A DNA stretch of 64,000 nt from Myxococcaceae bacterium (GCA_016793725.1 JAEUJP010000398.1:240-64239), one strand, 5' to 3'. Positions 36,681-50,838 are shown, counted from the first letter of the stretch. Translations and numbers: made by a program. The notes: generated by a model not told the origin, from the letters alone.

Positions 36681-36694
36681 GGTGGCGGCCCCTT

Positions 36695-37747
36695 TCAGAA
36701 CGAGACCCACAGCGGGTGGCGAACGAAGCTCGCGCAGACGGCCGTCCACGCGGTGCGGGTGTTGGTCGCTTCGTACGGCAGGTAGACCTGCGTGTAGACC
36801 GCGTCGACCTCGCCCTGAGAGGCGACCTCGCCCAGCATGCGCAGGTACAGCGCCGAGATGTTCTGTTTGATTTCGGTCTGCTTCGTCGCGCTGGTGTCGG
36901 CGAGCGTGACGTGGCGCAGCACGGCGCGGTTGCCCTGCTTCTCGACCGCGGCGCGGCACCAGGCCTGCGACATCTGCACGAGCGTCTGCAGCGCCGACGG
37001 CCCGAGCGTGGCGTCGCGCTTGCGGTAGTCGAGGGTGACGGCTCCGCCGAGGGCTTCGAAGCGCTCGGTGGCGCGCGAGTCAGAGACGTACTGGCGCGAG
37101 ATGCCGGGCGCCCAGTCGCGGGGCCAGACGAACAACGTGCCGCCGCGCGCGGTGTACTCTTCTTCGCGCCAGGTCGGGCGCGAGGTGTCGACGAAGTCTT
37201 GAACGCCGAGGCCGAGCTGGTCGAGCAGGCTCAAGACCATGTCGTCGGCGGCGAGGCGCCGCACCGTGAACAGCGCCGGCGACGGCTCGGAGTTGCGCAC
37301 GCCCGCGGGTGGGAGGTCGCGAACCCACTGCTCGACCTCGGCGATGGTCAGCTTCGCCACGCCCTGCTGCAGCAGCGCCTCGTACGAGGTGCCGACCGGC
37401 ATCTGCGGGTAGCTGCCCGGCGCGACGCCCTTGAGCATCTGCACGAGCAGGCTGCCGGCGGGGTCGCCCGGCTTCACGTACTTCGGGTCGTAGACGAGCC
37501 CGTTCTCGAACGCGTCGAGCGACGCGAAGAAGGGGCGGTTGCCGGTGAGGTGGCAGCCCGCGCAGGCCGCGTGCAGCGCGAGGCGAACTTCGTCGTTCTT
37601 GCCGTTGGGCTCACAGGAGGGCAGCTCGGCGCCGCCGCCGGTGCCGGTGCCGCCGCCGGTCGGGCCGGTGGGAATCGGCAGACCGCGCGAGAAGATGGAG
37701 GCGTCGCACGCCGAGAGGAGCGCGACGAAGAGGAGCGCACGTTTCAT
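36695..37747 (-). CDS. Lipoprotein with single CxxCH (heme-c-like) motif
   Basis: MKRALLFVALLSAC lipobox and LHAACAGCHLTGNRPFF. The start abuts the stop of the upstream gene (37748). Confidence 0.7.
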   Translation of the reverse strand: MKRALLFVALLSACDASIFSRGLPIPTGPTGGGTGTGGGAELPSCEPNGKNDEVRLALHAACAGCHLTGNRPFFASLDAFENGLVYDPKYVKPGDPAGSLLVQMLKGVAPGSYPQMPVGTSYEALLQQGVAKLTIAEVEQWVRDLPPAGVRNSEPSPALFTVRRLAADDMVLSLLDQLGLGVQDFVDTSRPTWREEEYTARGGTLFVWPRDWAPGISRQYVSDSRATERFEALGGAVTLDYRKRDATLGPSALQTLVQMSQAWCRAAVEKQGNRAVLRHVTLADTSATKQTEIKQNISALYLRMLGEVASQGEVDAVYTQVYLPYEATNTRTAWTAVCASFVRHPLWVSF

Positions 37748-39490
37748 CTAGAGGCCCCTCCGCAGCTCGGGCTGCATCAGGAGCTTCTTGATGAACGGCC
37801 TGAGCTTGCGGTCGCCGGCGACGAGCTCGGCGGCGAGCTTGTCGATGTAGAGCTTCTCGGCGGCGGGGTCCAAGTCGCGGCCGACGAAGTGCGCATAGAG
37901 GCGGCGCGCGGCGCAGCGGTCGAGCTCGCCCGACTTCACGAGAATTTTGCCGAACCCGAGCGGGCCCATCGTGCCGTCGCCGTGCTCGCCGAGCAGCGTG
38001 TACGACTGGGGCATGGTGTCGAGCAGCACGGCCTCGGGGTTCGCGGTCACCTGCGCCGCGGTCACGGGCGTCATCAGCGTGTCGGGCCGAAACGCGACCT
38101 TCCACCGGTAGCCGGGGCCGGCGCTCTCGGGGCCGTGCGGGTACTGGCCCGACAGCCACGCGGCGGTGGTGCGGAAGCGGCCGACGCCGCCCATGAATGG
38201 CCACGGCACGTAGTAGCTCTCGGCGCCGAAGTCCCACCGCTTGAAGAAGATGGCGGCGGGGTCGAGCGTCTGGTGGCAGTGCATGCACGTGCCGCCCTTC
38301 GCCGGGTCGTCGACGTACGGAGGAAACTGCACCGACGCCGGCGGCGGCGAGAAGCTGGCGCAGGCGAACGTCTCGAGGAAGCGCGCCGCGCGCACGCGCT
38401 CGCGGGGAAACGAAGAGAGCGAGCCGATCATGGTGAGCACGCCGGCGCTGGGCAGACCTTCGGGCGGCTGCGTCGTGGTGCGCGGGTCGAACTGGTAGTC
38501 GCGCGAGCGGCGGAAGAACGGGTTCAGGTCTTCGACGACGAACTCGCGCCACGCCTGCGGGTCGTTCGCGGTCGGGTGCATGGGGTCGCGCGGCGAGGTG
38601 TCGGCGGCCGGCTTCCACCACGTGGTGTTCATGTCGCTGACGGCGCTGCCCTGCTGCCGGCCCTGGCGCACGTAGAGGGCGCGCAGCCAGTTCGTGCCGA
38701 CCGAGTAGTTGCCGGTCACGAGGTCCGACAGCGGGCGGTCGTGCCACGCGAGGTGGGCGAAGAGGCGCGCGGGCTCTTCGTACGGGTGGCGGCGCTGGGC
38801 GCGGAAGAGGTCGTGGTTGCTGCCGCCGCCGAGGCCCGAGAGCGGCGAGCACCAGACGAGGTTGGTGCCGCAGCCGCAGCCGTCGGCGAGCGCGGGGTCG
38901 TAGTAGCCGCCCTCGGCGAGGCCACAGTCGCGCATGCCGTTCATGGTCGGCACCTGGCGAACGTTCGAGCCCGCGGTGCCGACGACCGAGACCATCGTGC
39001 CGGGCGCCCACCACGGCTCGTGCATCGTCGTCGGCGCGGCGGCGTCGTTGCACACCATCTGTTGCCAGTTGCCGTAGAGCTTGCCGGCGTGCGTGGTGTT
39101 GGCGCCGCACGTGAAGAGGTGGCCCGACATGTCGCCCTGGTAGGCATCGCCCTGCGCGCCGGTGGTGTACGCGCCGATGCCGAGCCACTCGTGGCCGAAC
39201 TTCACCATGCGCTCGTAGAACTTCGGGCTCTGCAGTGCGGTGTCGACGGCCTGGCTGATCAGCGCTTCTTTCGCGGCGTCGTCGGGCGCGGCGACGAGCG
39301 CCTCGTACTGCTCGGCGGTGGGCGTGGTGCCGGTGAGCGCGAGGGTCACGCGGCGCAGCATGCGCGTGTGGCTGATGCGGTCTTTCGTGTCGACGGCCGG
39401 GTTCGTCGGCGTCGGGGGCGCGCACTGCGGTGCCTGTGCGCGGGCGGCGAAGCTCGAGCAGAGGGCCGCGACGAGGGTGAGGCGGAGCAT
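37748..39490 (-). CDS. Secreted DUF1549/DUF1585-like protein with CxxCH motif
   Basis: Signal peptide MLRLTLVAALCSSFAARAQA. RMLRRVTLALTGTTPTAEQYEAL, and GGTCMHCHQTLDPAAIFF. Confidence 0.8.
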   Translation of the reverse strand: MLRLTLVAALCSSFAARAQAPQCAPPTPTNPAVDTKDRISHTRMLRRVTLALTGTTPTAEQYEALVAAPDDAAKEALISQAVDTALQSPKFYERMVKFGHEWLGIGAYTTGAQGDAYQGDMSGHLFTCGANTTHAGKLYGNWQQMVCNDAAAPTTMHEPWWAPGTMVSVVGTAGSNVRQVPTMNGMRDCGLAEGGYYDPALADGCGCGTNLVWCSPLSGLGGGSNHDLFRAQRRHPYEEPARLFAHLAWHDRPLSDLVTGNYSVGTNWLRALYVRQGRQQGSAVSDMNTTWWKPAADTSPRDPMHPTANDPQAWREFVVEDLNPFFRRSRDYQFDPRTTTQPPEGLPSAGVLTMIGSLSSFPRERVRAARFLETFACASFSPPPASVQFPPYVDDPAKGGTCMHCHQTLDPAAIFFKRWDFGAESYYVPWPFMGGVGRFRTTAAWLSGQYPHGPESAGPGYRWKVAFRPDTLMTPVTAAQVTANPEAVLLDTMPQSYTLLGEHGDGTMGPLGFGKILVKSGELDRCAARRLYAHFVGRDLDPAAEKLYIDKLAAELVAGDRKLRPFIKKLLMQPELRRGL

Positions 39491-41238: not shown

Positions 41239-41307
41239 GCTCCAAGTTTCGTGCGGTACTTACTGAAGGCCGCGGCGGCGAATGAAGTACCGCACGAAAC
41301 TTGGAGC
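41239..41307. repeat. Perfect 23-bp inverted repeat with 23-nt loop
   Basis: gctccaagtttcgtgcggtactt (41239-41261) pairs perfectly with aagtaccgcacgaaacttggagc (41285-41307). Confidence 0.85.
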
Positions 41308-41473
41308 GCAGTGATCCGCTCGCCCCAAAGCTCCCTCGGAGCGCACAAGCCGGCAGCCGTCGCGCGCTGGCCGTCGCGTCGTGCGCGGGCAGGTCAGCCC
41401 GAAGGGCGGCTTTAGCCGCGCCGCCAGGCGCTGACCGGAGCAGGCCCGCCGGTCGAAGTACGGCGCGTGCCCT

Positions 41474-41489
41474 GAGACATATGTCTCAC
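41474..41489. promoter_or_regulatory. 16-bp perfect palindrome, candidate operator
   Basis: TGAGACATATGTCTCA, 50 nt upstream of the ATG at 41539. Confidence 0.45.
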
Positions 41490-41538: not shown

Positions 41539-42687
41539 ATGACCGTCACCGTTCGAGGCAACGCTCCCGTTTCACCGCACCGCGACGCAACGAAGACCTA
41601 CGTCACCGACCGCAACGTCGCGAACCTCGCGAAGCTCGGCATCGGCGGCGACACGCTGACCATGGCGAAGCGCGGCGACGAGCTGCTCGACCCGGCCGCC
41701 GTCGGGGGCACTCCGCGGCCAGACGGCACCCTGCACCTCTTCGAGCTCGACCGCCTCGACAAGCCGGCCAACAAGGCCGCCCTCTTCCCCAACGAGGCCG
41801 GCGCCGTCTCGACCGTGCACCAGCTGTTCGAGGTTCCCGACGCGACGCAGGCCACCCTCGCGCCGCTCGACACGCTCGCCTACAAGCTCGAGCGCACGCT
41901 CACGCACGCGGCCGTCACCAACGTGCAGATTTCGTCGCTCGCGACGCCCGAGATGCGCACCGCCGCACAGCGCGTACAGCTGGTGAAGAACTCCGACGCC
42001 GACGCGAGCACGGTCACCCGCGAAGACGTTCAGTGGGCGCTCTCGCCGGCCAACGTCGGCGCGTTCACCGGCCAGACGCGGGCCGAGCTCGAGAAGGTGC
42101 TCGCCGTGTTCCACGACGACCTCTACGCCGAGAAGGTCATCGGCGTGCTGCCGCCCGCCACCCAGAAGCGCCCCATCGTCGAGGCGAGCGGCGTGAAGGT
42201 GTCGGTCGACACCCGCATCGGCTTTCGCACGGGCCGGCCGCACCCCGACAACGGCCGCAGCTACACGTGGCGGCCCGAGGTCGCCGAGCGCTTCATCAGC
42301 GTCGAAGCCCCGGTCGGCTACAAGGTGTTCGTGAAGACGGTCGCGACGGCGGGCGCGGGCGCGCAGAACCAGGAGGCGGTCATCGACGGCAACGGCGCGT
42401 CGCAGCGCGCGCTCATCGAGCCGTCGCTGTTCGACGGCGCCACGAGCGTCTGGGTTCAGATTCACGACCCCATCGGCGCGCTGGTGCGCAACGTGCGCGT
42501 CGCGCTGCCCAAGCACGAGCTGCCGGCGATGAACACGCCGGCGGGCCTGAGCGGCCGCCGCGTCGAAGAGTGGCGAGACCTCGCCGGCACCGTGATTCCA
42601 CACAAGGCCAACGGCGACCACGGCATCGCCGGGTACAGCCTCGACGGCCACCCGCACCTGTTCGCGCGAGAAGCCGTCGTCGTCTGA
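41539..42687 (+). CDS. Hypothetical protein, no signal peptide, no recognised family
   Basis: 382-aa ORF with balanced, protein-like composition, unlike the Arg/Ala-rich shadow ORFs overlapping it. Confidence 0.7.
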   Translation: MTVTVRGNAPVSPHRDATKTYVTDRNVANLAKLGIGGDTLTMAKRGDELLDPAAVGGTPRPDGTLHLFELDRLDKPANKAALFPNEAGAVSTVHQLFEVPDATQATLAPLDTLAYKLERTLTHAAVTNVQISSLATPEMRTAAQRVQLVKNSDADASTVTREDVQWALSPANVGAFTGQTRAELEKVLAVFHDDLYAEKVIGVLPPATQKRPIVEASGVKVSVDTRIGFRTGRPHPDNGRSYTWRPEVAERFISVEAPVGYKVFVKTVATAGAGAQNQEAVIDGNGASQRALIEPSLFDGATSVWVQIHDPIGALVRNVRVALPKHELPAMNTPAGLSGRRVEEWRDLAGTVIPHKANGDHGIAGYSLDGHPHLFAREAVVV

Positions 42688-42752
42688 CGTACGTGGTCTC
42701 CACGATGGCGACCCTCGAGCGGTGAGCGCACGTTCTCTCGTGAGGTGTCACC

Positions 42753-43919
42753 ATGAGAGCGCGCGAACTTTCGATCGTCGGTTGTCTGATGCTGTCGTCG
42801 GTGTGCCCAGCACCTACCGGCGCCGCCGCAGCGAGCGCGCCAGCGTCGCCTTTCGCCGGTTGTGTCGCCAACGCACAGCTAAAGGTCGAGCCCATGTCGC
42901 CGAGCGCGTTGACCGACAAGCTGGTGCAGAAGTGCTCGCGCTCTTCGTTGGCGTTCACGCTGCGAGGGTCGAATCGCCTGCGCGAGGGCCAGCCCGATGG
43001 GGCTCGTGACGACTTCAAGAAGGCGCTGGCGCTCGACGCGGAGTGGAACGCGGAGACGAAAGCGCGCGTGCGTGCGCTCTACGAGGGTCTGGTCGCGGCA
43101 GCTCCAGCCGGCTCACAAGAAGCGGGCGCCACCTCATCGGCTGCGCGACCCAGCGCCCCGTCGGGTGAAGCGGCCGCGGTCTCGCTCGCGGCGCGCCCGA
43201 ATACGCCGTCGACCGAGTCGGCCGCGGTCTCGCTCGCGAGCGCTGAACGCTCGGCCATGGCGGTACCCGCCGGCGTCGACCCTCGTGCCTGGGCGATGTT
43301 CGAGAACTTCTGGGGGTTCGCGGGCGCGCTGGGAGAGTTCGGCCAGGGTCTCGCCAACGGAGGCGACGGGACGATGTGGATTCCCGGGCTCACTGGCGGG
43401 AGCGGCGGCGGCACACGGCCCACGGGCCCTTCCGGCTCCGGAAGCTACTCTGGGCCAACGTTCGTCACGCCGCAGCCACAGTCTGTGGCCCAGACCGAAG
43501 CGCAGTGTCGCGCGAACGCGATTCATGACTGCAACGCCGCTAACCGAGCCGTTCAGCAAGAGTGGAACAGCTGCATCGCGGGCTGTGGCGACGACACGAC
43601 GTGCACCGCGAGATGTGACCAGGTGTGGATCGACAGACAAGAGCTCGAGGTGATGCCCGAATGTGCACGGCGAAAGGCCGCGTGTCGGCCGATGCTCTCG
43701 GGCGCGCCACCTGCTTCGCCGACGACCGTGGCGGCGCGAATGTCCACACGAAGCGCAGCGACTCCGCAGGCGACGTGCGGGCGATTCAAAGACCAGACAG
43801 TCTGCCGCATGCTCGTCGGCTGCGGCTGGTGCGCCCAGTCGAGCCAGTGCCTCTCGGGCGTACTGACCCGGCCCGAGACCGGGAGCTGCCCGCGCAGCCA
43901 ATGGAAGTACGGCCCCTGA
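42753..43919 (+). CDS. Secreted or lipoprotein with low-complexity centre and C-terminal Cys-rich region including a PSI-like module
   Basis: N-terminus MRARELSIVGCLMLSSVC. C-terminus ...TCGRFKDQTVCRMLVGCGWCAQSSQCLSG...GSCP. Confidence 0.7.
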   Translation: MRARELSIVGCLMLSSVCPAPTGAAAASAPASPFAGCVANAQLKVEPMSPSALTDKLVQKCSRSSLAFTLRGSNRLREGQPDGARDDFKKALALDAEWNAETKARVRALYEGLVAAAPAGSQEAGATSSAARPSAPSGEAAAVSLAARPNTPSTESAAVSLASAERSAMAVPAGVDPRAWAMFENFWGFAGALGEFGQGLANGGDGTMWIPGLTGGSGGGTRPTGPSGSGSYSGPTFVTPQPQSVAQTEAQCRANAIHDCNAANRAVQQEWNSCIAGCGDDTTCTARCDQVWIDRQELEVMPECARRKAACRPMLSGAPPASPTTVAARMSTRSAATPQATCGRFKDQTVCRMLVGCGWCAQSSQCLSGVLTRPETGSCPRSQWKYGP

Positions 43920-44182
43920 GCGAAAGTGTGGGGTGAGAGGGGGCCCGGCGCTGCCGCGCCTGGTTCTGGGGCGGCGGGCACCTGTCGTTCATGCGGCTCA
44001 TCACGGCCCGCGAGTGCTCGGTGGCGCGGGGCATGGGCGCGGTGATGTTCCGGGCCTCGGGCTCGGCCGAGGTCTGGCTCTACCGCCCGTGAGTCTCTGA
44101 CTCCCGGCCGGAGCATCGACGCTCCACCTGCGAGAAGTCGCGGAGGTGGCGGGGGCACGCCGATTGCCTCAGGCTCACGCCC

Positions 44183-45070
44183 GTGATGCGGGGGCTCATC
44201 GTCGCCGTGCTGTGTTCTGGCTGCGCGGGAGCGACGGTCTCGCGCTCCGTGATGTCGGGGCTGCCGCCGCTCCCGACGGCGCAGGTGTCGCCCGACGAAT
44301 GGCTGGCGGCGTTCGCGGGCTCGCAGATTTCGCCGGCCCACCAGCTCCGCACCGACACCGACACGGGCGTGCAGGTCTCGGCGGCTCAGCCTGAGGCGGG
44401 CATGCTGTTTCTCACCGCGGGCAAGTGGCTGCTCGTCGGAGCATCGCTCTACGGCGCGTACTCCGAATGGGTGCGGCCGTCGACGCCCCGCCAGATCGAC
44501 ATCAAAGACAGCTTCATGTTCGGCGCCCGCTCGCGCATCGCGTTTCGCGGCCACTTTCACCCGAACGCGGGCGTCATCGTCTCGCTGGAGCCCGGCCTCG
44601 AGCTGCTGCCGATGGCCGAGGTGGTGGCCGGCCGCATCGCCTTCACCTCGCTTCACATGCTGCCGACGCTGGGCGGCTCGCTGGTGCCGTACTACGAGAC
44701 GTCACGGCTCCGGCTGTTCGCGGGCGCGAGCGCGAGCACGATGCCCGCCATCACGGCGACCGGGGTGGTGACCGCGGGGTGTGGCGGTGCCTCGTGCTCG
44801 GGCGGTGCCCTCGGCGTCACCTTCCGCGTCGCCGTGCAGGCCGGCATCAAGGTCAACCTGCCCGAAGGTTTTGCGCTCAGCGCGACGGCGACGGTGCCCA
44901 TCGACACCGTGCTGCCGAACCTGCTGCCGATGGTGGCCCTGGCGCTGAGCTACCAGCGCGCGCAGCCCGTGCCCGACCCGCCCGAGCCGCAGCCCGCCCC
45001 ACTTCCTCCGCCGCCGCCCGCGTGGCCGGTCGAGCAGCCCGAAGCCCCGCTCCCGCCGCCGACGCTCTAG
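44183..45070 (+). CDS. Lipoprotein with Pro-rich C-terminal tail
   Basis: MMRGLIVAVLCSGCAG lipobox. Tail PVPDPPEPQPAPLPPPPPAWPVEQPEAPLPPPTL. Confidence 0.7.
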   Translation: MMRGLIVAVLCSGCAGATVSRSVMSGLPPLPTAQVSPDEWLAAFAGSQISPAHQLRTDTDTGVQVSAAQPEAGMLFLTAGKWLLVGASLYGAYSEWVRPSTPRQIDIKDSFMFGARSRIAFRGHFHPNAGVIVSLEPGLELLPMAEVVAGRIAFTSLHMLPTLGGSLVPYYETSRLRLFAGASASTMPAITATGVVTAGCGGASCSGGALGVTFRVAVQAGIKVNLPEGFALSATATVPIDTVLPNLLPMVALALSYQRAQPVPDPPEPQPAPLPPPPPAWPVEQPEAPLPPPTL

Positions 45071-45087
45071 AGCGCGTCTTTCGCGGC

Positions 45088-47091
45088 TCAGATGATGCGC
45101 ACCGGCTCGCCGACCTCGGGCTTCGCCAGCGCCGCGAGCACGTCGGGCGAGAGCTTCGCCTTGAGCGAGTCAATCATCGCCTGGCTGCCCGCGTAGTCGT
45201 GGTGCTCGGCGTCGAGCAGCGCCTGAATCGCCTGCCGGTCGACGTTCGGCAGGTTGTAGCGACCCAAGAAGCTCTTCCACACCTCGTTGTCGCGGTAGCC
45301 GCCGTCGATGTCGAGCGACTGCGCGAACCCGATGACGGCGTTCAGCTTGCGGTCGACGGCTGGCAGCGTCTGAATGCCCGACGACTGCAGAAAGCGGTTC
45401 AGCTCGTACACACACGTCGCGCGCAGCGCCTCTTCGCTCATGTGCGAGTACGACGCGTTCACCGACATGCGGTACTCGTCTTTGCCGCCGGGGCCCTTCA
45501 CGCGCTCGAACTTCACCACCTCGGCCTCGCCCGCCTTCGGCTCGAACCAGCCCGCTGCAATCACCTTCGAGTCGGGGTTCACGCGGTTGTGCACCGACGA
45601 GAACTCGGACACCGTGTTGAGCACCTGCGCCGCGATGTTGATTTTCGTGCCGTCGAGCGTGTGCGCCGGCCGGTCTTGCCGCACCGGCCGGAACTCGCGC
45701 GCCGTGTCGTCGGCCACGTTGAACGTCGAATAGTTGAAGTGTTTGTCGAGGTAGTCGGCCTGCCCGTCGTTGTCGCGGTCGAGCACGCGCTCGCGCACGA
45801 GCGTCGACGCCGGCGTGACGAAGTTGTTGCGCTCCCACTGGCCGTCGACGCGGTCCATGAACGGGTTGATGTCGGCCCACCCCGCCCGCTTCGCGAGCAG
45901 CTTCGCGAGCCCGTCGATGTCCGTATCGACCGCCGACGAGCCGTACGTCGTCGTCACCTGCAGGTTGGGGAACTTCTTCGCCATCGCGTCGATCTGGCTC
46001 TTGCCGACGCACAGGTTCGAGATGAACAGCTTGCCGTCACCGCCGTCGGCCGTCTGCGGCGCGTTGCGAATCGAGCCCACCTGGTTGTTGCCCCAGTTCG
46101 CGTGCCCGTCGTACCCCATGATGTGCACGCTCGCGTCGTTCAGCTTCGACAAGAGCCCCGTGCTGTTCGCCCCGCGCACCGTGATGCGGAACTTCGTCTC
46201 ACCGGCCGCCGGGTCGTTGAACGCCTTCTCGTAGACCGTCGCGCCGAAGCCCGCGCCGGCCACTTCTTTCCACCCCTTCTGCGCGATGCTCTTCTTGAAG
46301 CCGTCGATGAACTCGGGCCCCACCTGCCAGTCGAGGTTCACCGTCGTGTTGCCGTTCGCGAACCACTTCTCGTAGGGCGGTGCCGCCGGCGCGAGCTTCG
46401 TGATGAACCTGTCGGCCACCTGCTTCGCGTCGCCCGACTGCGCGAGCGGCGAGTTCGAGAGATGGAAGACGAGGCTCGCCTGCAGCCGGCGGTCGGGCTC
46501 TTTTTCAATCATCGCGCCGTACGCCGCCAGCAGCCGCCCGCGCAGCGGCTGCTCGCTCGTGGCCTCGAGCAGGTGCAGCATCGCCGTGCCCACCGACGCG
46601 CGCTGCTGCAGCGACTGGTTCGGGTCGGCCGGCAGCGAGCGCAGCGACACCTCGAGCTGCTCGAACACCTTGCCGCGCAGCGCGGGCGGCGTCGTCTCGA
46701 AGAGGTTCTTCGTCGCGTGGTCGATCAGCTCGCCGGTGCGAAACAGCGCCTCACCGCGCTCGGTCGCGTTCGCGGGCGGCTTGCCGTCTGCGTGCACCGT
46801 GAAGTTGCCGTCGGGCCCGAGGAACACCGGCCGCTGCGACGTGAGCACGTCGAGCGCCACCGCCCCACCCGCCGGCTGCGTCGGCTGCCTGGCGAGCAGC
46901 GCCTCGACCGCCTGCAGCGCCGCCGGCTCGAACGCCGTGCGGTAGTGCGTGATGATGCCCTTCAGCTGCGCCTTCTCGTACGCCGTGACCTTGCCGTCTC
47001 TGGCAATCTTGTCGACGAGGGCTTGCGCGTCGGCGCGGCTGAGAACTCCGTCTTTGGCGAGCGTGTCTGCGGTTCGGCGAATTCCGGGCAT
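45088..47091 (-). CDS. 667-aa hypothetical protein with caspase-like His/Cys dyad candidate and DxDxDG motif, no signal peptide
   Basis: FRITVRG...VHIMGYDGHANWG (His330)...KLFISNLCVGKS (Cys361). DRDNDGQADYLD calcium-site-like motif. Confidence 0.8.
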   Translation of the reverse strand: MPGIRRTADTLAKDGVLSRADAQALVDKIARDGKVTAYEKAQLKGIITHYRTAFEPAALQAVEALLARQPTQPAGGAVALDVLTSQRPVFLGPDGNFTVHADGKPPANATERGEALFRTGELIDHATKNLFETTPPALRGKVFEQLEVSLRSLPADPNQSLQQRASVGTAMLHLLEATSEQPLRGRLLAAYGAMIEKEPDRRLQASLVFHLSNSPLAQSGDAKQVADRFITKLAPAAPPYEKWFANGNTTVNLDWQVGPEFIDGFKKSIAQKGWKEVAGAGFGATVYEKAFNDPAAGETKFRITVRGANSTGLLSKLNDASVHIMGYDGHANWGNNQVGSIRNAPQTADGGDGKLFISNLCVGKSQIDAMAKKFPNLQVTTTYGSSAVDTDIDGLAKLLAKRAGWADINPFMDRVDGQWERNNFVTPASTLVRERVLDRDNDGQADYLDKHFNYSTFNVADDTAREFRPVRQDRPAHTLDGTKINIAAQVLNTVSEFSSVHNRVNPDSKVIAAGWFEPKAGEAEVVKFERVKGPGGKDEYRMSVNASYSHMSEEALRATCVYELNRFLQSSGIQTLPAVDRKLNAVIGFAQSLDIDGGYRDNEVWKSFLGRYNLPNVDRQAIQALLDAEHHDYAGSQAMIDSLKAKLSPDVLAALAKPEVGEPVRII

Positions 47092-47167
47092 GCCCGACAG
47101 CTTCCCAGAATCGCAGGTCTATTTCCGGCGAATTGGAAGGAAAAGCCCGGCCTGGGTCCTCCTTCAC

Positions 47168-48475
47168 ATGCGAATCCCCTCCGCCCTCGTCCCCAGCCGT
47201 ACCTCTTCCCTGACCACCACGCTGTCGGCCGAACGCCAGCAAGAGATTCGGAAGATGCACGAGCTCGACGCCTTCAAGACCATCGTCGCGCCCGAGAAGC
47301 AGCTCGACCACCGCAGCCTCAAAGACCTGCAGCCGAGGCAGCGCGGCGAGCTGCGCGATGCAGGCGGCGCCGTGCAAGAGGCCGATGACCTGCTCGCCGG
47401 CCCCGTCACCGGCCGCAGCGAAAACGGCGCCGTCGTCACGCGCGACCCGCAGAACGTCAACTCACCCGAAGACACCAACCCGCGCAGCGCCCGCCACCAG
47501 GCCGCGAAAGAGCAGGTCGAAGCGAACCGCCGCCTCGAAGAAGAGCGGCTCGCCCAGATGAGCCCCGAAGACCGCGCGAGCTACGAGGCCGTGCGCGCCC
47601 GCTGCCGCGAGGCCAACGACCCCGTCGCCGAGCTCGCCCTGCAGAAGCTGTTGCTCGAGGGCAAGCTGCCCGGCGCGAACGACCTGAAGGGTGAAGGCAA
47701 CCTGCTCTCACATCTCGCGCGCCTCTCAGACCCGAACACGCCGCTCGCCGACGGCGTCGACCGCGACCAGCTCGTCACCGACCTCGTGCAGGAGCTCGCC
47801 ACCCCGACCTCCATCAACCAGGGGCCGAGGGGCACGTGCGCGCCGACCAGCATCGCCGTGCAGCTCGCGATGGAGAACCCCGCCGAGTACGCGCGCATCG
47901 CGGCCGGCCTCGCGAGCCCGTCGGGTGAAGTGCGGCTCGCCGGCGGCGAGACGCTCCGGCGCGAAGACGGCACCGCGGCCGACGACGGGTCGGGCCGCAG
48001 CACCGTGCAGCGCATGATGGGCCCCGCCATGATGGAGATGGGCAACGGCGACCAGAACTACGACTCGGCCACCGACGCAGGCGCCGGCGCCTGGTCGCCC
48101 GAGCTCGACCACCTGTACGAACAAATCATGGGCCGCCCGATGAGTGAGCAGCGCACCACCACCGACGAGCAGCGCGCCGACGCGATGGCCACCATCGACG
48201 CCGAGGTCGCGCAAGGTCAGACCGTGCCGGTCGCGCTCGCGTGGCCCGGCGGGTACCACAAGGTGCTCGTCACCGGCACCGAGACGGTCGATGGCGTCGA
48301 GTACGTGAAGTACGTCAACCCGTGGGGCCGCGAAGAGCGCATGCCGCGCGACGAGTTCGAGCGCCGCATCGCCGACGTGAGCTGGGACCCGACGACACCA
48401 CGCGCCGCCTCGCAGGCCGCAGCCCTGCAGCGCAGCGCCGACCTCTCGCGCTGGCTGTCGAGCGTGGCGGCCTAG
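47168..48475 (+). CDS. Calpain/papain-like cysteine-peptidase-fold protein, no signal peptide
   Basis: NQGPRGTCAPTSIA (Cys224, codon 47837-47839), PGGYHKVLVTG (His364) and YVKYVNPWGREE (Asn384). An alternative start at 47255 is possible. Confidence 0.75.
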   Translation: MRIPSALVPSRTSSLTTTLSAERQQEIRKMHELDAFKTIVAPEKQLDHRSLKDLQPRQRGELRDAGGAVQEADDLLAGPVTGRSENGAVVTRDPQNVNSPEDTNPRSARHQAAKEQVEANRRLEEERLAQMSPEDRASYEAVRARCREANDPVAELALQKLLLEGKLPGANDLKGEGNLLSHLARLSDPNTPLADGVDRDQLVTDLVQELATPTSINQGPRGTCAPTSIAVQLAMENPAEYARIAAGLASPSGEVRLAGGETLRREDGTAADDGSGRSTVQRMMGPAMMEMGNGDQNYDSATDAGAGAWSPELDHLYEQIMGRPMSEQRTTTDEQRADAMATIDAEVAQGQTVPVALAWPGGYHKVLVTGTETVDGVEYVKYVNPWGREERMPRDEFERRIADVSWDPTTPRAASQAAALQRSADLSRWLSSVAA

Positions 48476-48478
48476 CCG

Positions 48479-49801
48479 TTACTGGCAGGCGCCCGTGTTG
48501 GTGTTGCACGTCTGCGGCGGCGTGCACGAGTTGCCCGGCGAGTCGCAGCGTGGCTCGCAGAAGTTGCCACTCGGGTTGCAGAAGAACCCGGCCCGGCACG
48601 TGATGGTCGGGCCGGGCTGGCACGCGCCGAGGCAGAGGCCCCCGACGGTGGGGCCGAGCGCGCCGCCGTTGAAGAGGTACAACACGCACGTGCTGCCCGC
48701 ACCGCACCAGGTGGTGCCGCCGACGGAGCAGTCGGCCGAGCACTCGCCGCCCGGGGTGCCCGAGACGCCGCCGTCTTGCAGCGTCGGCGGAATGCAGAAC
48801 GAGCCCTGGGGGAGCGTGCACTGCGTGTCGTTGGTGCACGGGTCGTGAACCGTCGAGTTGGGGCCACCCGGCGTGCCCGCATCGGCGAGCTCGGGAATGC
48901 CGCCGTCGGCCGTCTGAATCCAACACGCGAGGTCGGGGTTCGCCGACGAGCCGAAGTTGATGCACTGGTAACCAGGCGTGCGGCAGTCGGCGTTGCTGGT
49001 GCACTTCTGCATGCAGATGTTCTCGAGCTCGCCGATCGCGCCGAGGCCGAAGATGCACGTGCCGTTCGTGCCGCAGTGCGCGTCGGAGTGGCACCGCCGC
49101 GTGCAATACCCGTCGCGGTACGCGTACGGGCTGTAGCCCGGCGGAGGCGCCTGCAGCGTCTTGCAGAACGCCGGCTGCCCCGCGGGGCTCGCTGGCAGGT
49201 TGTTGCACTGCGCCGCCGACGTGCACGGCGAACCGAGCGTGCCGGCGTTGGTCGGCGGCGTACACACGCCCTGCACGCAGCTGTTGCCGGCCGGGCACGC
49301 TGCGCAGGCGTTGCCGTTCGTGCCACAGCTCGTCGCCGACTGCGACGCGAACGGCTGGCAGAAGCTGTTGAGCGAGCAGCAGCCCGAGACGCACGGGTTG
49401 CCGCCGCAGGTCATCGCGCTGCCTCCCGCGGTGCCCATGCCGCCGGCCGTATTACCGCCAGCGGTGTTGCCGCCCGCCGTGTTGTTGCCGCCCGCCGTGT
49501 TGTTGCCGCCCGCCGTGCTGTTGCCGCCACCCGCAGTGCCGCCGCTGCCCGCAGTGCCCGAGCCGCCGCCCGTGGAGCCTGCCGTGCAGGTGTTCGACGA
49601 GCAGACCGGGGTCGTGCCGCTGCAGGCGACGCACGCCGCGCCACCCCTGCCGCACGAGGCGTTCGCGGTGCCGAGCTGACAGCGCCCGGCTTCGCAGCAG
49701 CCGTCACAGTTCGCGGGGCCACACGTGGTCGCCGTACCGCTGCACGACAAGACACCGGCCGACAGCGCGGCCGTCAGTGAAACGAGAGCCAGCAGTCTCA
49801 A
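48479..49801 (-). CDS. Cysteine-rich lipoprotein with TAGGN linker
   Basis: TTG start with AAGGGG 8 nt upstream gives MRLLALVSLTAALSAGVLSC. Two CGxxxCxGCC...C..C modules flank the linker, followed by multiple C-x-C repeats. Confidence 0.75.
   Translation of the reverse strand: MRLLALVSLTAALSAGVLSCSGTATTCGPANCDGCCEAGRCQLGTANASCGRGGAACVACSGTTPVCSSNTCTAGSTGGGSGTAGSGGTAGGGNSTAGGNNTAGGNNTAGGNTAGGNTAGGMGTAGGSAMTCGGNPCVSGCCSLNSFCQPFASQSATSCGTNGNACAACPAGNSCVQGVCTPPTNAGTLGSPCTSAAQCNNLPASPAGQPAFCKTLQAPPPGYSPYAYRDGYCTRRCHSDAHCGTNGTCIFGLGAIGELENICMQKCTSNADCRTPGYQCINFGSSANPDLACWIQTADGGIPELADAGTPGGPNSTVHDPCTNDTQCTLPQGSFCIPPTLQDGGVSGTPGGECSADCSVGGTTWCGAGSTCVLYLFNGGALGPTVGGLCLGACQPGPTITCRAGFFCNPSGNFCEPRCDSPGNSCTPPQTCNTNTGACQ
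49420..49580. repeat. Coding tandem repeat (18-nt units) for a TAGGNN linker
   Basis: gttgccgcccgccgtgtt units. The minus strand reads STAGGNNTAGGNNTAGGNTAGGNTAGG. Confidence 0.8.
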
Positions 49802-49851
49802 CGAGGTACCCCTTGAAGAGTGAGGCGCGCAGCCTACGCCAAGCGAGCCGC

Positions 49852-50838
49852 TCAGTGGAGCGTCTTCGCCGCCAGCACCGCCGCCTGCCCCACCAGCGGT
49901 GACAGCAGGTAGTGCAGCCCGCGCCACGGCACGGTGATGCCCGCCGCCTCGGCGGTGCGCAGCATGCCGCCGCGCGACTTCGAGCCGTACAGCGTCGCTC
50001 CCGCGATCGCGAAGCCCGTACCCGACGGCGACAGCCCGAACACCAGCGGCCCCGAGTCGACGTCGCCCGAGCCCTTCACGCCCGGCGGGTACTCGCGCCA
50101 CGCCGCGAGGCCCGGCACCGCGTCGAAGAGGAACACGCGCTCGGCCGCCTCGAACTGCGCGCGCGCCGCCGCCGCGTCGACGAACGGCAGGTAATACGAG
50201 TTCCACCCCGCGCCCGACGCACGCGCGCCGCTGCGCGGCGTGAACTTCAGCACGCCCGACTTCGCGTCGCGCGGCCACCGCGCGAGCCACGCGCGCGCCG
50301 GCACTTCACGGCCGTCGCAGCGCGCGCCCTCGGCGACCGCCGCGAGCGTGACGGCGTTGTCGGGCACCCACTTCTGGTTCGGGTACGTCTCGAGCAGCGC
50401 GTCGGGGGCCTCGCCGTAGCGGCGCTCGAGCGCGCCCAGCACCCGGCGGCGCAGCACCGCGTTCTCGGCGCTGCACTCGAGGGCGAGCAGAAGCCCTGCG
50501 TGCCCCAGGTAACCCGCATGGCCGTCGCCGCCGTCGAGCGTCTGCAGCGCGTCGCTCTTCCACGCCCGCGTGTCGAACGCCCGCACGTCGGCGTCGAGCG
50601 CCCGGCGCGTGAGCCAGCGCAGCTCGTCGGCGCGGCCCAGGTTCTTCGCCGCGATGCCCGCCATCGAGAGCGAGACCAGGTACCACTCGGCGGCGATGAG
50701 GCCATCACCCGGCGTCGTCGCCTTCAGCTCGCCCATCACGTGCTCGAAGCGCGAGCTCGAGTCGTCGGCCGTCGCGCACGCCGAGCAGCCGACGAGCCGC
50801 ACGGCGACGAGGGCGGCGATGACTTTCAGCTTGCGCAT
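49852..50838 (-). CDS. Lipoprotein, hypothetical (helical-repeat-like)
   Basis: MRKLKVIAALVAVRLVGCSAC lipobox, in frame within ORF 49852..50976. Confidence 0.7.
   Translation of the reverse strand: MRKLKVIAALVAVRLVGCSACATADDSSSRFEHVMGELKATTPGDGLIAAEWYLVSLSMAGIAAKNLGRADELRWLTRRALDADVRAFDTRAWKSDALQTLDGGDGHAGYLGHAGLLLALECSAENAVLRRRVLGALERRYGEAPDALLETYPNQKWVPDNAVTLAAVAEGARCDGREVPARAWLARWPRDAKSGVLKFTPRSGARASGAGWNSYYLPFVDAAAARAQFEAAERVFLFDAVPGLAAWREYPPGVKGSGDVDSGPLVFGLSPSGTGFAIAGATLYGSKSRGGMLRTAEAAGITVPWRGLHYLLSPLVGQAAVLAAKTLH

What the first reader, a model, noticed from the sequence alone, without database searches (positions are those of the whole stretch)
41539..48475. Island of unassignable genes centred on a divergent pair of cytoplasmic cysteine-protease-like proteins
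Five consecutive genes have no housekeeping identity: a signal-less 382-aa unknown; a secreted protein with a PSI-like Cys knot; a Pro-tailed lipoprotein; a signal-less 667-aa protein with a caspase-like His/Cys candidate; and, divergently across a 76-bp gap (47092-47167), a signal-less calpain-like protein. The left border carries two strong palindromes. Two different clan-type cysteine proteases under a shared control region, next to exported partners, could be a secreted effector set of a predatory bacterium, a protease-based toxin/immunity or abortive-infection-type module, or a proteolytic signalling cascade. I cannot match it to any described system.
Basis: partly seen in the sequence, partly recalled or inferred. 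Interest (0 to 1): 0.7.

Follow-up and report, generated by a model that had tools for sequence, protein, structure and literature searches.

The report
Two unlinked cysteine-hydrolase genes, chance neighbours
The five genes are real and unannotatable, but they are not a conserved unit: the stretch is a variable patch of a myxobacterial chromosome that holds a distant calpain-like protease and the first-noticed member of a large undescribed protein family with an invariant His/Cys pair, a family that elsewhere sits repeatedly next to true bacterial calpains.

Summary
All five ORFs exist at the stated coordinates. None reaches a Pfam, NCBIfam, PADLOC or PDB-sequence threshold.

- **g5 (47168-48475, +)** is a papain-fold (clan CA) protein. 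Its Gln218/Cys224/His364/Asn384/Trp386 are conserved and align with the catalytic residues of a bona fide Peptidase_C2 family (hhalign 95%). "Calpain-like" is supported.
- **g4 (45088-47091, -)** founds a large uncharacterised family: 380 representatives of 50%-identity clusters. Across 86 diverse members only His330 and Cys361 are invariant, and a DxDxDGxxDxxD loop is at least 90% conserved. Structure and profile searches do not place it with caspases or gingipains.
- **The five-gene module is not supported.** None of 61 other g4 loci holds g1, g2, g3 or g5. None of 39 g5-family loci holds g4. The two closest syntenic relatives keep the flanks but carry different subsets of the genes.
- **An unexpected link.** A genuine calpain gene plus a 124-aa gene lies directly downstream of g4 homologues in two separate g4 paralogue lineages, at two different chromosomal loci, and nowhere else in 948 kb of flanks. 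A functional link between g4-type proteins and calpain-type proteases is therefore plausible, and this window may be a third instance.

No evidence supports a toxin/immunity or defence role.

The parts
41239..41307 (.). 23-bp perfect-stem hairpin (23-nt loop) in the w370-g1 spacer. Not part of any conserved unit.
   Evidence: 100% complementary arms, -64 kcal/mol, z -7.4. It is unique in the window and absent from 68 loci. The syntenic L067 has a 155-bp spacer here against 603 bp in the window.
41473..41488 (.). 16-bp perfect palindrome TGAGACATATGTCTCA, 51 bp before the g1 start. Candidate operator of g1.
   Evidence: The same site, with 1 mismatch, lies 51 bp before the g1 homologue in L067.
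41539..42687 (+). g1, 382 aa, no signal sequence, unknown function, very narrow family.
   Evidence: Only 7 clusters in 5.8 billion proteins. No family hit. It is kept at the same syntenic position in L067, without g4 or g5.
42753..43919 (+). g2, 388 aa, hydrophobic N-terminus, Cys-rich C-terminus with a PSI-like CGWC pattern.
   Evidence: Pfam TPR_2 E 0.008 and PSI E 0.05, both below threshold. GC3 is 0.78. It is absent from every related locus.
44183..45070 (+). g3, 295 aa, putative lipoprotein with a Pro-rich tail. Convergent with g4, 17 bp apart.
   Evidence: No homologue was found next to any g4 relative.
45088..47091 (-). g4, 667 aa, founding member of an undescribed His/Cys family. Order of parts: weak TerB-like N-terminus, helical repeat region, alpha/beta domain, Ca-type loop, alpha+beta C-terminal domain.
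   Evidence: AF2 model pLDDT 83.5. 121 close and 380 representative homologues. No Pfam, NCBIfam or PDB match.
46894..47091 (-). g4 residues 1-66, helical N-terminal region with weak TerB resemblance.
   Evidence: 8 of 41 family members hit Pfam TerB, best E 0.0014, below threshold. One homologue is named a TerB family protein by NCBI.
45802..46359 (-). g4 residues 245-430, alpha/beta domain. His330 follows strand 324-328 and Cys361 ends strand 355-361, just before helix 364-373.
   Evidence: Secondary structure. Motifs [YF]xGH[SA] and hhhxxC across 86 members.
46102..46104 (-). g4 His330 codon, invariant.
46009..46011 (-). g4 Cys361 codon, invariant. Proposed nucleophile.
45745..45780 (-). 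g4 residues 438-449, DRDNDGQADYLD, a DxDxDGxxDxxD calcium-binding-type loop.
   Evidence: D438, D440, D442, G443 and D449 are at least 90% conserved in 86 members. The loop has low pLDDT in the metal-free model.
47092..47167 (.). Divergent spacer between g4 and g5: 76 bp, or 163 bp if g5 starts at 47255.
   Evidence: no sigma-70-like promoter and no notable repeat. A GGGAAG lies 9 nt before the g4 ATG.
47168..48475 (+). g5, 435 aa, remote calpain-superfamily (clan CA) cysteine peptidase homologue with an N-terminal helical region of about 200 aa.
   Evidence: AF2 model pLDDT 90. Foldseek gives papain-fold hits. hhalign to the Peptidase_C2 alignment gives 95%, E 4e-8.
47777..48385 (+). g5 residues 204-406, papain-like catalytic core. 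Gln218 (47819-47821), Cys224 (47837-47839), His364 (48257-48259), Asn384 (48317-48319), Trp386 (48323-48325).
   Evidence: Q218, C224 and H364 are invariant and N384 and W386 at least 90% conserved in 39 homologues. They are in register with calpain Q347/C353/H515/N535/W537 of alignment A4. Codons verified.

Best explanation
The stretch is a variable segment inside a conserved chromosomal frame of an uncultured Myxococcaceae bacterium. It is not a five-gene system. It holds two unrelated, separately conserved genes that most likely encode cysteine-dependent hydrolases.

**g5** is a distant member of the calpain/papain superfamily with a complete Gln-Cys-His-Asn set. It most likely works as a papain-type thiol endopeptidase. 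Its roughly 200-residue N-terminal helical region may act as a prodomain or a substrate-docking part (inferred).

**g4** belongs to a large undescribed family. Its only invariant residues are a His and a Cys, each at the C-terminal end of one of two successive beta strands joined by a helix. A conserved DxDxDGxxDxxD loop follows. I infer a His-Cys dyad hydrolase, most likely a peptidase or amidase, whose activity or stability depends on calcium.

The divergent g4/g5 arrangement is specific to this genome. However, a true calpain gene plus a small 124-aa gene has come to lie directly downstream of g4 homologues at two different loci in related bacteria. g4-type proteins and calpain-type proteases therefore probably act together, for example by one processing or regulating the other. 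The g4/g5 adjacency may be a third case of that partnership.

**Shown:** the folds and motifs, the conservation, the lack of pair conservation and the recurrent calpain adjacency.
**Inferred:** catalysis, calcium dependence and any g4-calpain interplay.
For: **g5**
- Confident model (pLDDT 90).
- Foldseek hits only papain-fold proteins: StbD-CT 1e-4, SpeB, cathepsins, a C39-like protein, calpain and Cpe1.
- Q218, C224 and H364 are invariant and N384 and W386 at least 90% conserved.
- hhalign gives 95%, E 4e-8, to a family that hits Pfam Peptidase_C2 at 8e-31, with the catalytic residues in register. The g5 HMM hits those calpains at 2e-7 to 8e-5.

**g4**
- 380 representatives at E <= 1e-3.
- In 86 members, down to 18% identity to g4, only H330 and C361 are invariant, and the D438/D440/D442/G443/D449 loop is at least 90% conserved.
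- The motifs and their strand context are shown.

**Not a module**
- No g1, g2, g3 or g5 near g4 in 61 other g4 loci, 948 kb.
- No g4 in 39 g5-family loci, 295 kb.
- L001 (g4 75% identical, flanks 76-88%) lacks g1, g2 and g5. L067 (same frame) has g1 but no g4.

**g4-calpain link**
- The calpain plus 124-aa cassette is directly downstream of g4 in 9 loci that form two separate subclades of the g4 tree, in different flanking contexts.
- In five genomes sampled at both g4 paralogues, it sits next to only one of the two.
- It occurs nowhere else in the 948 kb.
Against: - No catalytic activity, calcium binding or interaction has been tested.
- The fold of g4's His/Cys domain has no significant structural match. 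The best are Toprim and Ras-like GTPases at E 5e-3 to 0.1. His and Cys could instead be metal ligands.
- I could not inspect model coordinates, so the proximity of H330 and C361 is inferred from topology only.
- The g4-calpain adjacency is limited to two lineages of Myxococcaceae-like MAGs. Most g4 loci, including distant ones, have no protease neighbour.
- The gap between g4 and the calpain gene is 150-330 bp, so co-transcription is not assured.
- g5 belongs to a different subfamily from those calpains, and the 124-aa partner is absent here. The window may therefore not be an instance of the same partnership.
Confidence: 0.6

Rival explanations
1. Pure coincidence: g4 and g5 are functionally independent accessory genes that happen to be neighbours in a gene-turnover hot spot. 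The g4-calpain adjacency elsewhere has no bearing on this window.
For: - The pair is unique to this genome.
- The region between the PSCyt2/w370 and w374/w251 frame genes differs in every relative examined.
- The organism of L001 appears to carry g5 homologues on other contigs of the same metagenome.
- The MAG of L067 carries its g5 homologue on another contig, next to a Zeta_toxin gene.
- The 124-aa partner of the calpain cassette is missing here.
Against: Calpain-type genes are rare. None occurs in 948 kb of g4 flanks except directly beside g4. A third chance juxtaposition of a g4 paralogue with a calpain-superfamily gene is therefore unexpected.
Confidence: 0.4
2. g5 is an antibacterial or prey-directed protease toxin or effector of the Cpe1/StbD-CT kind (papain/C39-type, cleaving targets such as GyrB/ParE) or a cell-wall peptidase. 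A neighbouring gene would provide immunity or help.
For: - The best structural matches are StbD-CT (8ssk) and, further down the list, Cpe1 (9l5u). Their functions are described in bioRxiv 10.64898/2026.05.07.723447 and PMC12136450.
- Weak hits of family members to Peptidase_C70/AvrRpt2 and papain-fold toxin 1.
- Soil relatives carry an N-terminal PG_binding_1 domain.
- One homologue follows a Zeta_toxin gene.
Against: - The Foldseek E-values (1e-4 to 7e-3) are no better than those for SpeB, cathepsins and calpain, whereas the profile comparison places g5 with calpains.
- There is no CdiA, Rhs, PAAR, VgrG or LXG delivery domain and no signal sequence.
- There is no co-directional downstream immunity-type gene. 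The next gene is convergent.
- g4 is far too large and too widely conserved among housekeeping neighbours to be an immunity protein.
- No plasmid copies were found.
Confidence: 0.12
3. The genes form an anti-phage defence or abortive-infection module that uses proteases as effectors.
For: Protease effectors, including caspase-like ones, are known in defence systems (general knowledge). The genes lie in a variable region.
Against: - No PADLOC model matches any of the five proteins.
- There are no sensor NTPase, nuclease or other defence genes nearby.
- g4 homologues sit among transketolase, oxidoreductase, kinase and other housekeeping genes.
- GC3 is native. The gene set does not move together.
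Confidence: 0.04
4. g4 is not an enzyme. The invariant His and Cys, with the Asp-rich loop, bind a metal, and the protein is a calcium- or metal-sensing scaffold or regulator with a TerB-like N-terminus.
For: - No homology to any known hydrolase.
- Weak TerB resemblance.
- Conserved DxDxDG-type loop.
- Helical repeat region resembling designed or HEAT-like repeats.
Against: - A lone His plus a lone Cys are too few ligands for a typical structural metal site.
- Their placement after hydrophobic strands, with Cys just before a helix ([YF]xGH[SA] ... hhhxxCxG), is the usual layout of a nucleophile/base pair.
- The absolute invariance of exactly these two residues over 86 divergent sequences is typical of catalytic residues.
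Confidence: 0.15

Closest known systems
Calpain family (MEROPS C2, Pfam PF00648), especially the non-classical bacterial calpains surveyed by Rawlings 2015 (PMC4631099)
   Same: g5 has the papain fold. It has the Gln/Cys/His/Asn order, the QGxxGxC and NPWG motifs, and profile-level homology (95%) to a Pfam-validated bacterial calpain family. Like most bacterial calpains it lacks EF-hand/PEF domains and a signal peptide.
   Different: g5 does not reach the PF00648 threshold, or any Pfam hit at all. Its core is shorter, about 200 aa. It has its own conserved N-terminal helical region. Distant relatives carry PG_binding_1.
C39-like / papain-like antibacterial peptidase toxins Cpe1 (PMC12136450) and StbD-CT (bioRxiv 10.64898/2026.05.07.723447)
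   Same: StbD-CT (8ssk) is the top Foldseek match and Cpe1 (9l5u) also appears. Both share a compact papain-type core with a GH...NPWG-like C-terminal half.
   Different: g5 has no delivery domain, no adjacent immunity gene and no secretion-system context. The similarity is marginal (E 1e-4 to 7e-3, TM 0.2-0.5).
Clan CD cysteine peptidases (caspases/metacaspases C14, gingipains C25, legumain C13, clostripain C11)
   Same: g4 has His before Cys, 31 residues apart, each following a hydrophobic beta strand in an alpha/beta domain. Its motifs YxGH[SA] and hhhxxC recall YSGHG/YTGHG and QACxG/ACVNG. A nearby calcium-type loop recalls the calcium dependence of several clan CD enzymes.
   Different: No structural or profile similarity was detected. 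Foldseek returned Ras-like and Toprim folds only. Pfam gave nothing. hhalign gave 0.1% to a C14 protein and to an RgpB/Kgp/PorU profile.
DxDxDG calcium-binding loops (EF-hand-like, thrombospondin type 3 repeat pattern DxDxDGxxDxxD; from general knowledge)
   Same: g4 residues 438-449, DRDNDGQADYLD, fit the pattern. The acidic positions and the Gly are conserved family-wide.
   Different: It is a single loop in a new context. There is no Pfam TSP_3 or EF-hand hit, and metal binding is untested.
TerB (PF05099) N-terminal helical domain
   Same: Weak hits in 8 of 41 g4 homologues. One homologue is named a TerB family protein by NCBI.
   Different: All hits are below threshold, and the window protein itself gives none.

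Membership tests
Calpain / clan CA papain-fold peptidase (for g5) | Papain-like fold | tested here: met
   AF2 model pLDDT 90. All informative Foldseek PDB hits are papain-fold proteins with probability 0.97-1.0.
Calpain / clan CA papain-fold peptidase (for g5) | Catalytic Gln (oxyanion), Cys, His and Asn in that order, conserved | tested here: met
   Q218, C224 and H364 are invariant, N384 and W386 at least 90%. They align with calpain Q/C/H/N/W.
Calpain / clan CA papain-fold peptidase (for g5) | Match to Pfam Peptidase_C2 above the gathering score | tested here: not met
   No Pfam hit for g5 at E <= 1. No C2 hit among 39 homologues. Only profile-profile homology, 95%, to a C2-positive family. 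g5 is therefore a remote relative, not a Pfam-defined member.
Calpain / clan CA papain-fold peptidase (for g5) | Thiol-dependent peptidase activity | not testable with these tools
   Needs enzyme assays with a C224A control.
Cpe1/StbD-type antibacterial peptidase toxin (for g5) | Fusion to or association with a delivery system (CdiA, Rhs, T6SS) and a cognate immunity gene immediately downstream | tested here: not met
   No such domains. The downstream gene is convergent. Contexts of homologues are unrelated.
Clan CD peptidases, caspase-haemoglobinase fold (for g4) | His then Cys dyad, each after a hydrophobic beta strand | tested here: met
   H330 follows strand 324-328 and C361 ends strand 355-361. 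Both are invariant in 86 sequences.
Clan CD peptidases, caspase-haemoglobinase fold (for g4) | Structural similarity to caspase, gingipain or legumain folds | tested here: not met
   Foldseek against PDB and BFVD found no clan CD protein in the top 50. The best matches were Toprim and Ras-like GTPases, E >= 5e-3. The whole multi-domain model was the query and the excised domain could not be searched, so this result is weak.
Clan CD peptidases, caspase-haemoglobinase fold (for g4) | Sequence or profile similarity to C14, C25, C13, C11 or CHAT | tested here: not met
   No Pfam hits for 41 full-length members or for 10 excised cores at E <= 10. hhalign gave 0.1% to a Peptidase_C14 protein and to RgpB/Kgp/PorU.
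DxDxDG-type calcium-binding loop (for g4) | Pattern DxDxDGxxDxxD with conserved acidic ligands | tested here: met
   The pattern is present at residues 438-449. D438, D440, D442, G443 and D449 are at least 90% conserved. Actual metal binding is not testable here.
TerB (for the g4 N-terminus) | Match to PF05099 above threshold | tested here: inconclusive
   8 of 41 homologues hit at best E 0.0014. The window protein has no hit.
Known anti-phage defence systems (PADLOC) | Any component matching a PADLOC model | tested here: not met
   No hits at E <= 1 for all five proteins.
Conserved gene cluster or operon (the five-gene 'island') | Co-occurrence of the genes in other genomes | tested here: not met
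   Each gene has its own distribution, and the g4/g5 pair is found only here.
PSI (plexin repeat) domain (for g2) | Match to PF01437 above threshold | tested here: inconclusive
   E 0.05, 14.4 bits against a cut-off of 23.1. A CGWC-containing Cys pattern is visible in the sequence.

The most novel reading that the evidence does not exclude
g4 represents a new clan-level family of calcium-dependent cysteine peptidases with a His-Cys dyad on a Ras/Toprim-like alpha/beta scaffold. In myxobacteria it would form a two-protease pathway with bacterial calpains, one enzyme activating or restraining the other. That would give bacterial calpains, which lack calcium sites of their own, a calcium-sensing partner.
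Probability: 0.15. Interest if true: 0.75.

Novelty: new variant of a known kind. Interest (0 to 1): 0.45.

Why it matters
Bacterial calpains are rare, none has a well-established role, and they lack the calcium-binding parts of their eukaryotic relatives (PMC4631099, PMC9380684).

The recurrent placement of a calpain cassette beside a conserved protein carrying a His/Cys pair and a calcium-type loop gives a concrete, testable partner for them.

Independently, g4 defines a sizeable protein family: 380 representatives of 50%-identity clusters, mainly Myxococcota, with at least one Omnitrophota member. It has no Pfam, NCBIfam or PDB counterpart and shows a clear catalytic-looking signature. That makes it a candidate new peptidase family for MEROPS or Pfam.

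For the genome scan, the useful lesson is negative. A run of "unassignable" genes with suggestive motifs was not a system but a gene-turnover hot spot.

Tried and rejected
1. **Caspase or gingipain identity of g4.**
   - Foldseek against PDB and BFVD.
   - PDB profile searches with A1 and A3.
   - Pfam on 41 members and on 10 excised cores at E <= 10.
   - hhalign against a Peptidase_C14 protein from L068.
   - hhalign against an RgpB/Kgp/PorU alignment, rebuilt from PDB sequences after I recalled a motif resemblance.
   - All were negative.
2. **P-loop GTPase reading of the Ras-like Foldseek hits.** Rejected, because no GxxxxGK[ST] follows the first strand (sequence).
3. **Defence system.** PADLOC was negative.
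4. **Plasmid or mobile origin.** No plasmid matches for g4 and only a 15%-coverage hit for g5. GC3 is native.
5. **RNA element for the big hairpin.** Rfam found nothing in the whole window. The hairpin is not repeated in the window or the loci.
6. **Shared N-terminal module between g4, g5 and the calpains.** Only weak hhalign signals, 8% and 1% probability, so nothing is claimed.
7. **A homologue of the 124-aa calpain partner in the window.** None found.
8. **Exact look-ups.** Those for P0001 and P0145 found no record.

Full report
**Source and observation**

The window is about 70% G+C. It matches a 64.5-kb contig of a metagenome-assembled 'Myxococcaceae bacterium' with locus tags JNK82_196xx.

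| Gene | Coordinates | Strand | Length |
|---|---|---|---|
| g1 | 41539-42687 | + | 382 aa |
| g2 | 42753-43919 | + | 388 aa |
| g3 | 44183-45070 | + | 295 aa |
| g4 | 45088-47091 | - | 667 aa |
| g5 | 47168-48475 | + | 435 aa |

- Third-position G+C is 0.91-0.94 for g1, g3, g4 and g5, and 0.78 for g2. The flanking genes show 0.89-0.96, so all five look like native coding sequence.
- None reaches a Pfam, NCBIfam or PADLOC threshold. g4 and g5 have no PDB sequence match.
- g2 has only sub-threshold TPR and PSI hits.
- g1, g4 and g5 lack any hydrophobic N-terminal or membrane-like segment. g2 and g3 have one, and g3 ends in a proline-rich tail.
- NCBI starts g5 at Met30. The nearest homologue aligns from residue 1, so I keep 47168.

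**g5 is a remote calpain-superfamily protein**

- It has 87 homologues, all Myxococcota, including cultured Archangium, Melittangium, Cystobacter, Myxococcus and Corallococcus.
- In 39 of them Gln218, Cys224 and His364 are invariant, and Asn384 and Trp386 nearly so.
- The AlphaFold2 model is confident (pLDDT 90).
- Foldseek returns only papain-fold proteins: the StbD-CT toxin (1e-4), streptopain, cathepsins, a C39-like peptidase, m-calpain and the Cpe1 toxin.
- The decisive link came from a neighbour of g4 homologues (below). That 570-aa protein hits Pfam Peptidase_C2 at 8e-31. An alignment of nine such proteins (A4) matches the g5 family by hhalign at 95% probability, E 4e-8.
  - INQGxxGTC aligns with VRQGAIGNC.
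  - GYHKVLVTG...YVNPWG aligns with ANHAYSVLG...LRNPWG.
- The g5 HMM also hits those calpains directly.

"Calpain-like" is therefore right at superfamily level. By Pfam's own criterion g5 is not a member.

Other family features:
- More distant soil relatives (28-32% identity) carry an N-terminal peptidoglycan-binding domain.
- One homologue hit Peptidase_C39_2 in the precomputed tables.
- None shows a classical signal peptide.

**g4 founds an undescribed family with a His/Cys signature**

- A word-indexed search found 121 homologues, all Myxococcota MAGs.
- A full HMM search of 1.84 billion cluster representatives found 380 at E <= 1e-3 and 148 at E <= 1e-30. These include an Omnitrophota protein.
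- In an alignment of 86 diverse members, down to 18% identity to g4, the only invariant residues are His330 and Cys361. Asp438, Asp440, Asp442, Gly443 and Asp449 of DRDNDGQADYLD are at least 90% conserved.

The model (pLDDT 83.5) shows these parts in order:
1. A helical N-terminus, with weak TerB hits in 8 of 41 members.
2. A helical-repeat region.
3. An alpha/beta domain. His330 follows strand 324-328, and Cys361 ends strand 355-361 just before a helix.
4. The acidic loop, which has low confidence, as expected for a metal site modelled without metal.
5. An alpha+beta C-terminal domain.

The family motifs are [YF]xGH[SA]xxG and hhhxxCxG. This is the layout of a base/nucleophile pair and resembles clan CD peptidases in pattern.

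Every test of real kinship failed:
- Foldseek against PDB and BFVD gives only Toprim and Ras-like GTPases, at E >= 5e-3.
- PDB profile searches hit only helical repeats.
- Pfam gives nothing for full-length members or excised cores.
- hhalign gives 0.1% to a Peptidase_C14 protein.
- hhalign gives 0.1% to an RgpB/Kgp/PorU profile that I rebuilt from PDB sequences to test a remembered motif resemblance.

There is no P-loop. I therefore call g4 a putative His-Cys hydrolase of unassigned fold class with a DxDxDGxxDxxD calcium-type loop.

Fusions in distant members are listed below. None shows a signal peptide.
- An N-terminal proprotein-convertase P-domain in several members.
- HEAT/ARM repeats in one member.
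- VanY plus Hint in one member.

**The five genes are not a unit**

- I fetched 59 genome loci encoding g4 relatives and several by exact look-up. None contains a homologue of g1, g2, g3 or g5.
- Reciprocally, 39 loci with g5-family genes (295 kb) contain no g4-family gene.
- g1 belongs to a family of only seven clusters.

The closest relatives share the chromosomal frame. On one side it runs DUF1501, a 348-aa gene, PSCyt2 and a 370-aa gene. On the other it runs 374-aa, 445-aa and 251-aa genes, then CarboxypepD_reg and VWA genes. What lies between the two sides differs:

| Locus | Content between the frame genes |
|---|---|
| Window | g1, g2, g3, g4, g5 and a Cys-rich secreted ORF |
| L001 (g4 75% identical, flanks 76-88%) | A 322-aa gene, g4 and two small genes |
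| L067 | g1 and a 269-aa gene, plus a 202-aa core-only g5-like paralogue at another position |

The neighbours of g4 homologues are mostly housekeeping genes: transketolase, sarcosine-oxidase-like oxidoreductases, aldehyde dehydrogenase and an amino-acid kinase. Very distant members are also stand-alone genes. Nothing points to a secretion system, a polymorphic-toxin locus or a defence island. Neither gene is found on plasmids.

**An unexpected positive result**

- In nine loci a Peptidase_C2 gene (570 aa), followed 12-15 bp later by a 124-aa gene, lies directly downstream of the g4 homologue.
- On a tree of g4 proteins these loci form two separate subclades, one in each of the two main paralogue lineages. 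The flanks differ: an upstream 265-aa gene and a downstream thiamine-diphosphate enzyme in one, downstream oxidoreductases in the other.
- Sister loci with the same flanks lack the cassette.
- In five genomes sampled at both paralogues, the cassette sits beside one only:
  - MAG127: L007 without, L050 with.
  - MAG-73: L026 with, L037 without.
  - SJ252: L054 without, L051 with.
  - MAG316: L011 without, L032 with.
  - EUL_206: L010 with, L033 without.
- The calpains in the two contexts are 71-73% identical to each other. The adjacent g4 paralogues are only about 45-50% identical to the window's g4.
- In 948 kb of sequence around g4 genes, no calpain-type gene occurs anywhere except immediately beside g4.

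This is good comparative evidence that g4-type proteins and calpain-type proteases are functionally tied in this lineage. The window has a different, more distant calpain-superfamily gene, placed divergently and without the 124-aa partner. It could be a third, independent instance or a coincidence. I put these at roughly even odds.

**Mechanism, with steps marked**

*Shown:*
- g5 has a complete papain/calpain catalytic set on a papain fold.
- g4 has an invariant His/Cys pair at the ends of successive strands, and a conserved calcium-type loop.

*Inferred:*
- g5 is an active thiol endopeptidase whose N-terminal helical region may act as a prodomain or docking part.
- g4 is a thiol hydrolase (peptidase or amidase) modulated by calcium.
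- In lineages with the cassette, and perhaps here, the g4-type enzyme and the calpain-type enzyme act on each other or on a common substrate.

Bacterial calpains lack calcium sites (PMC4631099, PMC9380684), so a calcium-binding partner is an attractive but untested idea.

**Border features**

- The 16-bp palindrome at 41473-41488 lies 51 bp before g1. It is kept at the same distance before the g1 homologue in L067. It is a g1 regulatory site, not an island border.
- The 23-bp-stem hairpin at 41239-41307 is strong (z -7.4) but unique. It lies in about 450 bp that L067 lacks. Rfam finds nothing in the window.

**Verdict**

The calpain-like label and the conserved His/Cys pair hold. The caspase label, the five-gene module and the toxin or defence readings do not.
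- g5 is a new, remote member of a known superfamily.
- g4 is a new family whose kind (a thiol hydrolase with a His-Cys dyad) is familiar but whose fold relationship is unresolved.
- Interest is moderate. It rests mainly on the g4 family and its recurrent coupling to bacterial calpains.

Noticed in passing
L003 10152-12253; also L010, L024, L026, L032, L044, L050, L051, L055: A cassette of a true Peptidase_C2 (calpain) gene of 570 aa and a 124-aa gene with no family match lies directly downstream of g4 homologues. It occurs in two separate g4 paralogue lineages and at two different chromosomal contexts. The 124-aa gene is never seen without the calpain.
   Followed up: yes
window 41239-41307: A 23-bp perfect-stem hairpin with a 23-nt loop (-64 kcal/mol, z -7.4) and no T-run. 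It is unique in the window and absent from 68 loci. It lies in about 450 bp of spacer that the syntenic locus L067 lacks. Its origin is unknown.
   Followed up: partly
window 41473-41488; L067 7935-7950: A 16-bp perfect palindrome, TGAGACATATGTCTCA, lies 51 bp before the g1 start codon. It is conserved (1 mismatch) at the same distance before the g1 homologue in another genome. It is probably a regulator binding site belonging to g1.
   Followed up: partly
L067 5993-6688: A 202-aa, core-only paralogue of g5 (33% identical over the catalytic half) sits between the PSCyt2 and 370-aa frame genes of a relative. That relative has g1 but no g4 in this region.
   Followed up: partly
L065 5350-7302: The closest g5 homologue (72% identity) starts 22 bp after a Zeta_toxin-family gene. 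Three large genes without family matches (807, 558 and 611 aa) precede it.
   Followed up: no
L079, L082, L088, L098 (metagenome loci) and P0189: Distant g5-family proteins from soil metagenomes carry a PG_binding_1 domain, with Gly/Pro-rich low-complexity N-termini ahead of the papain-like core. This hints that part of the family acts on or at the cell wall.
   Followed up: partly
P0317 (Candidatus Omnitrophota), P0209/P0211/P0272/P0120, P0346: Distant g4-family proteins are fused to other domains: VanY plus Hint in P0317, an N-terminal proprotein-convertase P-domain in P0209, P0211 and P0272 (P0120 also carries a P-domain), and HEAT/ARM repeats in P0346.
   Followed up: partly
window 46882-46992 (g4 residues 34-70); g5 residues 127-164; calpain A4 residues 69-105: The same short helical stretch of g4 (…SxxEKxxL…DPxAxxxLxxLL…) gives weak hhalign matches to N-terminal stretches of both the calpain neighbours (E 0.004) and the g5 family (E 0.05). 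It may be a shared small module or noise.
   Followed up: partly
window 48479-50290 (-), probably starting near 49800: A Cys-rich, Gly/Thr/Asn-repeat (GGNNTAGGNNTAGG…) ORF with a lipoprotein-like signal and no family match. It is convergent with g5, 3 bp apart, and is absent from both syntenic relatives.
   Followed up: no
window 42753-43919: g2 has a third-position G+C of 0.78, against 0.91-0.94 for its neighbours. It has no homologue in any fetched locus. It may be a recent acquisition or fast-evolving.
   Followed up: no
window 35115-39490: A DUF1501 / 348-aa / PSCyt2-DUF1800-type trio (planctomycete-style cytochrome-domain proteins) forms the conserved left frame of the variable region. 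It is 77-88% identical in L001 and L067.
   Followed up: no
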